Source: Escherichia coli O157:H7 (lineage in GTDB: Bacteria; Pseudomonadota; Gammaproteobacteria; Enterobacterales; Enterobacteriaceae). Taken from it: DNA of 64,000 nucleotides. A program made the position numbers. The stretch lies in assembly GCF_013167455.1 (NCBI RefSeq), contig NZ_CP038328.1. One strand, 5' to 3'. The first letter of the stretch is position 1, and each line of letters starts with the position of its first letter. Shown piece by piece: positions 12,001 to 15,000 of this stretch.

Positions 12001-15000
12001 ACGGGATAACTTTCGGATCGAAGTAGTGTTTCTTACCGGCGATAACTTCAGCGGCAACGTGACCTTCGTGAACACCTTTGTGTGCCAGCATCGGCTGACC
12101 GACGATATCGCCGATAGCAAAGATGTGCGGTACGTTGGTACGCAGCTGTTTGTCAACGCGGATGAAACCACGGTCGTCAACTTCCACGCCAGCTTTGCCT
12201 GCGTCGAGGTTTTTACCGTTCGGCACACGACCAATCGCTACCAGCACGGCGTCGTAACGCTGCGGTTCAGCTGGTGCTTTTTTGCCTTCCATCGTCACAT
12301 AAATACCGTCTTCTTTCGCTTCAACGGCGGTAACTTTGGTTTCCAGCATCAGGTTGAATTTCTTGCTGATACGCTTGGTGAAGACTTTAACGATGTCTTT
12401 GTCAGCTGCCGGGATAACCTGGTCGAACATTTCAACCACGTCAATCTGTGAACCCAGCGCGTGGTAAACGGTGCCCATTTCCAGACCGATGATACCGCCA
12501 CCCATTACCAGCAGGCGTTCTGGTACTTCTTTCAGTTCCAGCGCGTCAGTAGAGTCCCAGATACGCGGATCTTCATGCGGAATAAACGGCAGTTGAATCG
12601 GGCGAGAACCCGCTGCAATGATCGCGTTGTCGAAGTTGATCACGGTTTTACCGTTCTCACCTTCAACTTCCAGGGTGTTAGCCCCGGTAAATTTACCCAG
12701 ACCGTTGACCACTTTGACTTTGCGGCCTTTCGCCATACCAGCCAGACCACCGGTCAGCTGATTGATCACTTTCTCTTTCCAGGTACGAATCTTGTCGATA
12801 TCGGTTTTCGGTTCGCCGAAGACGATACCGTGTTCAGCCAGCGCTTTGGCTTCTTCGATAACTTTTGCTACGTGCAGCAGTGCTTTAGAAGGGATACAGC
12901 CGACGTTCAGGCAAACACCGCCAAGGGTGTTGTAACGTTCTACGATTACGGTTTCCAGACCTAAATCAGCGCAACGGAAGGCAGCGGAGTAACCTGCGGG
13001 GCCTGCCCCAAGTACCACGACCTGAGTTTTGATTTCAGTACTCATCATGACCTCTATATATTTATCTCCGGCGGGTCTGACGTTTTTTTTATGACGCCCA
13101 TTATCCACCGGGTCGTTCTATCCGTCGGTATTTTACAAAATTGTTAACAATTTTTAAACAACAAACGGCAACCGATTTGTCTATTCGCTAATAACCTCAA
13201 TACATTCATGAGATTACCAGAAAAAAGCCGGCCGTTGGGCCGGCTCTTTTACTTACATCACCAGACGGCGAATGTCAGACAGCGTGTTGTTAATGATGGT
13301 AATGAAACGGGCACCATCAGCACCGTCGATCACGCGGTGGTCGAAGGAGAGAGAAATCGGCAGCATCAGACGCGGCACGAACTCTTTACCATTCCACACC
13401 GGCTCCATCGCGGACTTGGAAACGCCGAGGATAGCCACTTCCGGCGCGTTCACAATCGGCGCGAAGTGGGTAGTACCCAGGCCGCCGATGCTGGAGATGG
13501 TGAAGCAACCGCCCTGCATTTCGCCCGCAGTCAGCTTACCGTCACGCGCTTTCTTAGAAATAGTCATCAGCTCGCGAGACAGTTCGATGATGCCTTTCTT
13601 GTTGACGTCTTTGAATACCGGAACAACCAGACCGTTCGGGGTATCCACCGCCACACCGATGTTGATGTATTTCTTCAGGGTCAGACGCTGACCGTCTTCC
13701 GACAGCGAACTGTTGAAGCGAGGCATCTGCTCAAGCGCTGCAGCAACGGCTTTCATGATGAAGACAACCGGGGTGATCTTCACATCCAGCTTACGTTTCG
13801 CCGCTTCTTCGTTCTGCTGTTTACGGAACGCTTCCAGCTCGGTGATATCGGTTTTGTCGAAGTGAGTAACATGCGGGATCATCACCCAGTTACGGCTCAG
13901 GTTCGCACCAGAAATTTTCTGGATACGGCCCAGTTCCACTTCTTCGATTTCACCAAACTTGCTGAAGTCCACCTTCGGCCACGGCAGCATGCCAGGGATA
14001 CCACCGCCAGTCGCTGCCGGAGCTGCTTCTGCACGTTTGATAGCTTCTTTCACGTAAGCCTGAACGTCTTCGCGCAGGATACGACCTTTACGGCCAGTGC
14101 CCTTCACTTTCGCAAGGTTAACGCCAAACTCGCGTGCCAGACGGCGGATCAGCGGGGTCGCGTGAACGTAAGCGTCATTTTCAGCAAATTCAGATTTGCC
14201 TTCCGCTTTCGCAGCCGGTGCTGCTGCCGGGGCTTCAGCTTTTGCTGCCGGAGCCGGCGCTGCTGCTTCCTGTTTCGCAGGAGCTGCCGCAGGCGCTGCG
14301 CCTTCAACTTCGAAGATCATAATCAGCGAGCCAGTTTTCACTTTATCGCCAACGTTGACTTTCAGTTCCTTCACGACGCCTGCAAACGGAGCCGGAACTT
14401 CCATAGAAGCTTTATCGCCTTCTACGGTAATCAGTGACTGTTCAGCGGCAACTTTGTCGCCCACTTTCACCATCACTTCGGTCACTTCAACTTCGTCACC
14501 GCCGATATCCGGAACGTTAACTTCTTTCACGCCAGCCGCTGGTGCAGGGGCCGCTGCCGGAGCCGCTTCCTGTTTAGCCGCCGGAGCTGCCGCGCCTGCT
14601 TCACCCGCCACTTCGAAGACCATAATCAGCGAGCCGGTAGACACTTTGTCGCCGGTGTTCACTTTGATTTCTTTCACGGTGCCTGCAAACGGAGCCGGAA
14701 CTTCCATAGAAGCTTTATCGCCTTCTACGGTGATCAGCGACTGCTCAGCTTCAACTTTGTCGCCAACTTTCACCAGGATTTCGGTCACTTCAACTTCGTC
14801 GCTGCCGATATCCGGAACGTTAACGTCTTTTGCCGCGGCAGCCTCGGGGACTGCTGCCGGAGCTGCTTCTTTCTTCTCTTCTGCCTGAGCAGGTGCAGCG
14901 TCTGCTGCACCGTCGGCGGAATCGAAAATCATAATCAGTGCGCCGGTCTGAGTTTTATCGCCAACAGAGACTTTGATCTCTTTAACGATACCCGCCTGCG

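What the first reader, a model, noticed from the sequence alone, without database searches (positions are those of the whole stretch)
13046..13252. aceF-lpd intergenic region about 117 bp shorter than I recall for K-12
The spacer containing the aceF terminator and the independent lpd promoter is 207 bp here; my recollection of K-12 coordinates gives about 324 bp. All other gene lengths and spacings in the window match K-12 within a few bp, so this is one of only three indel-level differences, probably loss or gain of a REP/IRU-type element. It could alter lpd promoter context.
Basis: partly seen in the sequence, partly recalled or inferred. Interest (0 to 1): 0.2.

Follow-up and report, generated by a model that had tools for sequence, protein, structure and literature searches.

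The report
ERIC-free aceF–lpd spacer, common E. coli allele
The gap between the aceF and lpd genes is 117 bp shorter here than in E. coli K-12 because K-12 carries a well-known 127-bp repeat (ERIC/IRU) in the lpd mRNA leader and this strain, like 37% of complete E. coli genomes, does not; this is ordinary, already-described strain variation.

Summary
The aceF–lpd spacer is 207 bp in the window (13046..13252, genes on the minus strand) and 324 bp in K-12 MG1655. The 117-bp difference arises because K-12 carries a 127-bp ERIC/IRU element plus 20 locus-specific nt and one more base (147–148 nt), where the window has 30–31 unrelated nt. Among 5,426 complete E. coli genomes the locus has two alleles. 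The short form is in 1,991 genomes, including O157:H7, CFT073 and IAI39. The long form is in 3,433, including K-12, BL21 and IAI1. Salmonella, Citrobacter, Klebsiella, Franconibacter and most of ~75 other enterobacterial species examined have spacers of 196–213 bp. The window's 31-nt block is homologous to theirs, so the short form is the ancestral layout and the ERIC allele is derived. The aceF terminator, the lpd promoter hexamers and the position matching the published K-12 start site are identical in both alleles. The variable block begins about 18 nt downstream of that start. The difference therefore changes the lpd leader (78 nt versus 195 nt, without a roughly −81 kcal/mol hairpin) and not the promoter. 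This is known biology and of low interest.

The parts
13253..13255 (-). aceF stop codon (TAA), ending ...RRLVM*
   Evidence: Read from the sequence. ORF 13253..15145 is 630 aa. RefSeq annotation of the identical O157:H7 locus agrees.
13221..13245 (-). aceF intrinsic terminator: stem AGCCGGCC-CAAC-GGCCGGCT followed by a T-run on the minus strand
   Evidence: One search found a stem of 8 pairs (7 G-C) at 13226..13245. The minus-strand T6 was read. The terminator is identical in K-12 and conserved across genera.
13130..13158 (-). lpd internal promoter: -35-like TTTAAA at 13158..13153, a 17-nt spacer, and -10 TAAAAT at 13135..13130. It includes the TTGTTAACAATTTTGTAA direct-repeat segment, which is inferred to be the published ArcA site.
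   Evidence: Consensus scan. Identical in K-12 and almost invariant across about 40 species. ArcA regulation of this promoter comes from the literature. The exact position of the ArcA site was not verified here.
13123..13123 (-). Position equivalent to the published K-12 lpd transcription start (G, 7 nt after the -10 hexamer)
   Evidence: PMC2759082 places the K-12 lpd promoter 195 nt from the ATG. This maps to spacer position 130, which is window 13123. The start was inferred by alignment and was not measured in this strain.
13046..13123 (-). Predicted lpd 5' UTR, 78 nt here and 195 nt in K-12
   Evidence: The window leader folds to -17.5 kcal/mol with z = -0.85, which is unremarkable. The K-12 leader folds to -81.2 kcal/mol with z = -5.5.
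13105..13111 (-). 5' half (CCGGUGG) of a conserved 7-bp stem that brackets the variable block
   Evidence: Centroid structure. RNAalifold consensus over 38 species. The pairs are kept by invariance and one-sided changes only, with no compensatory double changes.
13075..13104 (-). Variable apical block (ATAATGGGCGTCATAAAAAAAACGTCAGAC). K-12 has 20 nt, the 127-nt ERIC and one more base at this site.
   Evidence: The block is homologous to that of Franconibacter (27/31), Atlantibacter (25/31) and Klebsiella (23/31).
13068..13074 (-). 3' half (CCGCCGG) of the conserved stem
13051..13055 (-). Shine-Dalgarno sequence AGAGG of lpd
   Evidence: Read from the sequence. Invariant in all 38 aligned species.
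13043..13045 (-). lpd (lpdA) start codon ATG (MSTEIK...)

Best explanation
The window carries the ERIC-free, ancestral-type aceF–lpd spacer. K-12 and other phylogroup A/B1 E. coli carry a derived allele. In that allele a 127-bp ERIC/IRU repeat, together with 20 locus-specific nt, replaces the 30-nt top of a small conserved stem-loop in the lpd mRNA leader, for a net gain of 117 bp. The aceF terminator, the ArcA-regulated internal lpd promoter, the inferred start site, the ribosome-binding site and both coding sequences are the same in the two alleles. The only consequence is for the transcript. Here the lpd-specific mRNA should have a 78-nt, weakly structured leader. In K-12 the leader is 195 nt and dominated by the long ERIC hairpin, which is also present in read-through pdhR-aceEF-lpd mRNA. 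What is shown directly is the two-allele structure, the ERIC identity, the direction of change and the unchanged promoter sequence. What is inferred is the start site in this strain and any effect on lpd mRNA stability or translation, which is probably small because both alleles are common.
For: Spacer lengths are 207 and 324 bp. The alignment shows identical flanks with a 147-nt versus 30-nt replacement. ERIC identity rests on several tests. The element is 127 nt with 7-bp terminal inverted repeats CATACCC/GGGTATG. It matches the ERIC1R and ERIC2 primer sites at 20/22 and 21/22 (primers verified). It has a median of 9 homologous places per E. coli genome at 77–84% identity. It aligns with the copies at rpsB-tsf and pgk-fbaA over the 127 nt only. 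It folds into a long hairpin with z = -5.5. Allele counts are 1,991 short and 3,433 long. For direction of change, most of ~75 outgroup species have spacers of 196–213 bp without an ERIC core, and the window's block is homologous to theirs. By phylogroup, MG1655 and IAI1 have 324 bp, and CFT073, IAI39 and O157:H7 have 207 bp. The published K-12 start site is 195 nt from the ATG, 7 nt after TAAAAT and about 18 nt upstream of the variable block.
Against: The long allele is not simply the short allele plus ERIC, so a single TA-target insertion does not explain the junctions. The ERIC allele also occurs in E. albertii and E. whittamii, and at the same site in a Klebsiella-like genome labelled 'Enterobacter sp. 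10-1'. A single recent gain in the A/B1 lineage is therefore too simple. Recombination between species or an old polymorphism must be involved. No expression data for either allele were available.
Confidence: 0.92

Rival explanations
1. This lineage lost an ERIC that was ancestral to E. coli, so the event was a deletion here and not a gain in K-12.
For: E. albertii and E. whittamii, which lie outside E. coli, carry the ERIC allele nearly identical to K-12's, at 148/148 and 146/148.
Against: The window's 30–31-nt block aligns base for base with ERIC-free spacers of Franconibacter, Atlantibacter and Klebsiella. A deletion could not recreate that sequence. The short form must have persisted continuously, or been re-imported by recombination from a short-allele donor. 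B2, F and E strains all have the short form, while A and B1 have the long form.
Confidence: 0.06
2. The length difference is due to a REP/BIME element, the other half of the first reader's guess.
For: REP elements are the commonest intergenic repeats in E. coli. One Escherichia lineage (L065) does have a REP pair inserted in this spacer, matching at 33/34.
Against: The best REP match is 17/34 in the K-12 spacer and 14/34 in the window spacer, both at chance level. The K-12 insert matches ERIC on every feature tested.
Confidence: 0.01
3. The two leaders are functionally distinct alleles kept by selection. Under this reading the ERIC hairpin changes lpd mRNA stability, processing of the read-through transcript, or translation, and so tunes Lpd supply to the PDH and 2-oxoglutarate dehydrogenase complexes.
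For: Both alleles are at intermediate frequency, 37% and 63%. Both occur in several Escherichia species. The ERIC block is 100% conserved between K-12 and E. albertii although lpd differs by 4.5%. ERIC elements change the stability of co-transcribed mRNA in Yersinia in an orientation-dependent way (De Gregorio 2005, as summarised).
Against: The allele split follows phylogroup, which fits simple inheritance. The genome sample is not a random population sample. The whole spacer is highly conserved, not only the ERIC. Some Buttiauxella species lack the entire stem region, so that part of the leader is dispensable. There are no expression data.
Confidence: 0.1
4. The short spacer is a sequencing or assembly artefact, such as collapse of a hairpin-forming repeat.
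For: Long palindromes can be lost during cloning or assembly.
Against: The identical junction is found in 1,991 independently assembled complete genomes. It carries a specific 30-nt replacement sequence that is conserved in other genera.
Confidence: 0.005

Closest known systems
ERIC / IRU elements (Sharples & Lloyd 1990; Hulton et al. 1991), with strain-to-strain presence/absence in E. coli (Wilson & Sharp 2006)
   Same: The extra DNA in K-12 is a canonical copy. It is 127 nt and an imperfect palindrome, has 7-bp terminal inverted repeats with TA at the ends, carries the conserved core with both ERIC-PCR primer sites, lies between genes inside a transcribed region, and is multi-copy. Presence in some strains and absence in others is the variation already reported for ERIC loci.
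   Different: The window itself contains no ERIC, either at this site or anywhere in its 64 kb. At this locus the ERIC-bearing allele also carries 20 extra nt and lacks the 30-nt ancestral block, so the junctions are not those of a simple TA-duplicating insertion.
ERIC elements in Yersinia that modulate stability of co-transcribed mRNA through RNase E (De Gregorio et al. 2005)
   Same: The K-12 copy is co-transcribed with its neighbours. It lies in the lpd leader and in the read-through aceF-lpd RNA, and it is predicted to form the same kind of long stem-loop.
   Different: The Yersinia effect was shown for elements at the 3' end of genes. Here the element follows the aceF terminator and sits in a 5' leader. 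No stability data exist for either allele, so any functional parallel is an inference.
REP/BIME elements
   Same: They are also short, palindromic, intergenic and variable between strains. One REP pair does occupy this same spacer in Escherichia sp. MOD1-EC7003.
   Different: They are not involved in the K-12 versus window difference. The best REP match is 17/34 in K-12 and 14/34 in the window.

Membership tests
ERIC/IRU (applied to K-12's extra DNA) | Length of about 127 bp | tested here: met
   The stretch from CATACCC to GGGTATG is 127 nt. Homology to other copies is limited to this stretch.
ERIC/IRU (applied to K-12's extra DNA) | Imperfect palindrome forming a long stem-loop in the transcript | tested here: met
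   The leader folds to -81.2 kcal/mol with z = -5.5, and 0 of 200 shuffles fold as well. The element aligns with its own reverse complement.
ERIC/IRU (applied to K-12's extra DNA) | Conserved central core containing the ERIC1R and ERIC2 primer sites | tested here: met
   Matches are 20/22 and 21/22. The primer sequences were verified in PMC6066780.
ERIC/IRU (applied to K-12's extra DNA) | 7-bp terminal inverted repeats with 5'-TA-3' at the termini | tested here: met
   The ends are CATACCC and GGGTATG, and TA is present at both. The criterion comes from the table.
ERIC/IRU (applied to K-12's extra DNA) | Target-site duplication flanking a simple insertion | tested here: inconclusive
   The flanks do not reconstitute the short allele, because 20 new nt are present and about 30 ancestral nt are missing.
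ERIC/IRU (applied to K-12's extra DNA) | Intergenic location within a transcription unit, and multi-copy in the genome | tested here: met
   The element lies about 18 nt or more downstream of the published lpd start site. There is a median of 9 homologous places per genome. Other copies lie between rpsB and tsf and between pgk and fbaA.
ERIC/IRU (applied to the window's spacer 13046..13252) | Any ERIC core or primer site present | tested here: not met
   The ERIC core has no match in the whole window at up to 3 mismatches. The best primer match in the spacer is 11/22.
REP/BIME | Match to the roughly 34-nt REP (palindromic unit) consensus | tested here: not met
   The K-12 spacer scores 17/34 and the window spacer 14/34. 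The positive control L065 scores 33/34. The REP consensus was quoted from memory.
Structured cis-regulatory leader (the conserved 7-bp stem in the short-type lpd 5' UTR) | Base pairs supported by compensatory changes across species | tested here: inconclusive
   Across 38 species all 7 pairs are largely kept, but 0 pairs show changes on both sides and the covariation term is only -0.33 kcal/mol. No Rfam family reaches threshold.

The most novel reading that the evidence does not exclude
The top of the conserved stem-loop in the lpd leader may be a preferred landing or exchange site for small palindromic elements. If so, the 148-nt ERIC-bearing cassette behaves as a transferable allele. A cassette with the same junction structure is present in E. 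coli A/B1, E. albertii, E. whittamii and a Klebsiella-like genome, while sister lineages keep the short form. That pattern would imply spread across species and genera by homologous recombination, or a long-lived polymorphism, possibly with an effect on Lpd expression.
Probability: 0.15. Interest if true: 0.35.

Novelty: already known. Interest (0 to 1): 0.1.

Why it matters
It matters little. The difference marks which of two common E. coli alleles this strain carries, and the allele tracks phylogroup: A and B1 have the long form, while B2, E and F have the short form. It is a textbook case of ERIC presence/absence, which is the basis of ERIC-PCR typing. There is one practical point. Work on lpd regulation in K-12, including leader length, reporter fusions and transcript mapping, does not transfer base for base to O157:H7, ExPEC and other short-allele strains, whose lpd leader is 117 nt shorter and lacks the big hairpin. 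If the leaders differ functionally, this would be a natural experiment on how an ERIC hairpin in a 5' UTR affects a central-metabolism gene.

Tried and rejected
- **Literature on this locus.** Searches for a paper naming an ERIC/IRU at aceF–lpd found nothing in the held library. Wilson & Sharp 2006 and Sharples & Lloyd 1990 are not held. That this particular copy is catalogued therefore rests on my own recollection and is unverified.
- **Rfam.** No family reaches threshold in either allele. The hits were OrzO-P at 31.9 bits on the aceF terminator and CssrA at 26 bits on part of the K-12 ERIC, both far below their gathering scores. I treated them as chance or generic hairpin matches.
- **REP hypothesis.** Rejected.
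- **MAFFT's partial alignment.** MAFFT aligned the window's ...AAACGTCAGAC with the right end of the ERIC. This is coincidental, because that ERIC end (GAAAGACGA.GGG) is shared with unrelated ERIC copies.
- **Simple TA-target insertion.** I tried to explain the junctions this way, but they do not reconstitute the short allele, so this is left unexplained.
- **Covariation test of the leader stem.** Inconclusive.
- **UMN026 (phylogroup D).** NC_011751 is not in the collection, so phylogroup D was not sampled.

Full report
**1. The observation**

The pyruvate dehydrogenase genes lie on the minus strand of the window. The lpd ATG is at 13045..13043, the aceF stop codon is at 13255..13253, and aceF is the 630-aa ORF 13253..15145.

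In E. coli K-12 MG1655 (NC_000913.3), aceF is at 125695-127587 and lpd at 127912-129336, so the spacer is 324 bp. The K-12 derivative DH5alpha gives the same length.

**2. What the difference consists of**

I aligned the window, K-12 and an O157:H7 genome that is 100% identical to the window.
- The first 148 nt of the spacer are identical. They hold the aceF terminator and the lpd promoter region.
- The last 29 nt are also identical. They hold the Shine-Dalgarno sequence.
- Between these flanks K-12 has 147 nt where the window has 30 nt (window 13075..13104, ATAATGGGCGTCATAAAAAAAACGTCAGAC).

So this is a replacement and not a clean insertion or deletion.

The K-12 block contains a full-length ERIC/IRU element.
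- It is a 127-nt stretch running from CATACCC to GGGTATG, so it has 7-bp terminal inverted repeats with TA at both ends.
- It matches the two ERIC-PCR primer sites at 20/22 and 21/22. I verified the primer sequences, and the description 'imperfect palindromes of 127 bp', in PMC6066780.
- It has homologues at a median of 9 places per E. coli genome, at 77–84% identity.
- It aligns with the copies between rpsB and tsf, between pgk and fbaA, and in an integrative element, over those 127 nt only.
- As RNA the K-12 leader folds into one long hairpin of −81.2 kcal/mol, with z = −5.5.

These are the features that define the family (table in PMC2229807). The 20 nt to the left of the element (GTGGTTAGGGTATTACTTCA) are specific to this locus.

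The extra DNA is not a REP. The best REP match is 17/34 in K-12, against 33/34 for a true REP in another lineage. The window has no ERIC core anywhere in its 64 kb.

**3. How common each form is**

Junction-spanning queries against 5,426 complete E. coli genomes gave these counts:

| Allele | Spacer | Genomes | Share |
|---|---|---|---|
| Short (as in the window) | 207 bp | 1,991 | 37% |
| Long (as in K-12) | 324 bp | 3,433 | 63% |

The two counts add up to 5,424, which is every genome that has the locus. The locus is therefore strictly two-allele.

Reference strains show that the split follows phylogroup. The phylogroup assignments are from established knowledge and were not tested here.

| Strain | Phylogroup | Spacer |
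|---|---|---|
| MG1655 | A | 324 bp |
| IAI1 | B1 | 324 bp |
| CFT073 | B2 | 207 bp |
| IAI39 | F | 207 bp |
| O157:H7 | E | 207 bp |

**4. Direction of change**

A scan of one genome per species for the lpd start returned 88 loci. The spacer could be measured in 81 of them.
- Outside Escherichia the spacer is 196–213 bp in most of about 75 species. Examples are Salmonella (201–202), Citrobacter (199–203), Klebsiella (206–207), Franconibacter (207) and Atlantibacter (209). These spacers have no ERIC core.
- The window's 31-nt block aligns with the block at the same position in Franconibacter (27/31), Atlantibacter (25/31) and Klebsiella (23/31).

The short form is therefore the ancestral layout and the ERIC-bearing form is derived. 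A deletion of the ERIC could not recreate that ancestral block.

The history inside Escherichia is less simple.
- The ERIC allele is also present in E. albertii, where the block is 148/148 identical to K-12 although lpd is only 95.5% identical.
- It is present in E. whittamii (146/148) and in two further Escherichia genomes.
- The short form is present in two other divergent Escherichia genomes, L015 and L065.
- A genome labelled 'Enterobacter sp. 10-1' carries a cassette with the same junction structure at the same site (133/148). Its lpd is closest to Klebsiella grimontii at 93%, and its relatives have 206–207-bp spacers.

The shared junction structure argues for a single origin of the cassette. 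It would then have spread by homologous recombination, or persisted as a long-lived polymorphism. I could not tell these apart.

**5. Where the difference lies relative to the lpd control elements**

All of the following are identical in the two alleles.
- The aceF terminator at 13245..13221.
- The −35-like hexamer at 13158..13153 and the −10 TAAAAT at 13135..13130.
- The surrounding TTGTTAACAATTTTGTAA repeats. I infer that these are the published ArcA site, but I did not verify its position.

PMC2759082, citing Spencer & Guest 1985 and Cunningham et al. 1998, places the ArcA-regulated lpd promoter 195 nt from the ATG in K-12. That position is a G located 7 nt after TAAAAT, which corresponds to window 13123. 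The variable block begins about 18 nt downstream of it.

The polymorphism is therefore inside the 5' UTR and not in the promoter. The predicted leader is 78 nt here and folds to −17.5 kcal/mol with z = −0.85, which is unremarkable. The K-12 leader is 195 nt.

In both alleles the variable block is bracketed by CCGGUGG (13111..13105) and CCGCCGG (13074..13068). RNAalifold recovers these as a 7-bp stem across 38 species. In K-12 the ERIC hairpin stacks on this stem. The stem is kept only through invariance and one-sided changes, with no compensatory double changes, so it is plausible but not proven.

The block it encloses is an indel hot spot across the order.
- Siccibacter has an extra small hairpin there.
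- Two other genera (L024, L037) have a hairpin of about 45 nt.
- One metagenome-assembled genome (L044) has an insert of about 200 nt with TACCC…GGGTA ends.
- Several Buttiauxella species have lost the whole region.

**6. Mechanism and consequence**

Shown directly:
- the two-allele structure;
- the ERIC identity of K-12's extra DNA;
- the direction of change;
- the unchanged promoter and terminator sequences.

Inferred:
- that transcription starts at 13123 in this strain;
- that the only effect of the difference is on the RNA.

In Yersinia, ERIC elements alter the stability of co-transcribed mRNA through RNase E in an orientation-dependent way (De Gregorio 2005, as summarised). A quantitative effect on lpd expression is therefore conceivable. 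Both alleles are abundant in successful lineages and part of the leader is dispensable in other genera, so I expect any effect to be modest. No data bear on this.

**7. Comparison with what is known, and verdict**

ERIC/IRU elements have been known since 1990–91. Their presence or absence among E. coli strains has been described (Wilson & Sharp 2006, cited), and it underlies ERIC-PCR typing. I could not retrieve the primary papers to confirm that this particular copy is listed.

The window's spacer is simply the ERIC-free allele. Novelty: already known. Interest: low.

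Noticed in passing
L065 (Escherichia sp. MOD1-EC7003), aceF-lpd spacer, 359 bp: This lineage has the short-type lpd leader but a separate insertion of about 152 bp between the aceF terminator stem and its T-run. The insertion contains a REP matching at 33/34 and a second palindromic unit, so it is a BIME. It may affect aceF termination.
   Followed up: partly
L051 ('Enterobacter sp. 10-1', NISF01000007.1), aceF-lpd spacer, 325 bp: A 148-nt ERIC cassette with the same junction structure as K-12's sits at the same site (133/148 identical), in a genome whose lpd is closest to Klebsiella grimontii at 93%. Its relatives have ERIC-free spacers of 206–207 bp. This suggests exchange of the cassette between genera or a very old polymorphism.
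   Followed up: partly
L004 (E. albertii NBRC 107761) compared with L001 (K-12): The ERIC block is 148/148 identical between E. albertii and K-12, and the whole spacer differs at only 3 positions. The adjacent lpd gene is only 95.5% identical and the aceF 3' end 97.2%. This points to constraint on the spacer or a recent recombination tract.
   Followed up: partly
L013/L080 (Siccibacter), L024, L037, L044, and L050/L057/L078 (Buttiauxella): lpd leader between CCCGGTGG and CCGCCGG: The top of the conserved leader stem is an indel hot spot. Siccibacter has an extra 19-nt CCTC…GAGG hairpin. L024 and L037 have a hairpin of about 45 nt. The metagenome-assembled genome L044 has an insert of about 200 nt with ERIC-like TACCC…GGGTA ends but no ERIC core. 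Three Buttiauxella species, with spacers of 153 bp, have lost the whole stem region.
   Followed up: partly
L092 (rpsB-tsf), L093 (pgk-fbaA), L001 (aceF-lpd): The three chromosomal ERIC copies examined all lie between co-oriented, highly expressed genes, and all have the same orientation relative to transcription. The copy in an integrative element (L091, mobH-ardC) has the opposite orientation.
   Followed up: no
window 2161..2194 and 29261..29294 (+): These are REP-like sequences matching the REP consensus at 33/34 and 31/34. They are ordinary REP elements elsewhere in the window.
   Followed up: no
window 13221..13284 (-) and L001 2040..2140: There are two sub-threshold Rfam matches. OrzO-P scores 31.9 bits (gathering score 60) over the aceF terminator hairpin. 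CssrA scores 26 bits (gathering score 93) over the right half of the K-12 ERIC. Both are probably generic hairpin or repeat resemblance.
   Followed up: no
L095 (CFT073, NC_004431.1), record positions 127216..132257 and 136042..137935: CFT073 has an island of about 5 kb between aroP and pdhR that IAI1 and IAI39 lack. It holds tssD, bacteriocin-immunity genes and an IS3 element. Its aceF is annotated in RefSeq as a frameshifted pseudogene, which is probably a sequencing error in this old assembly.
   Followed up: no
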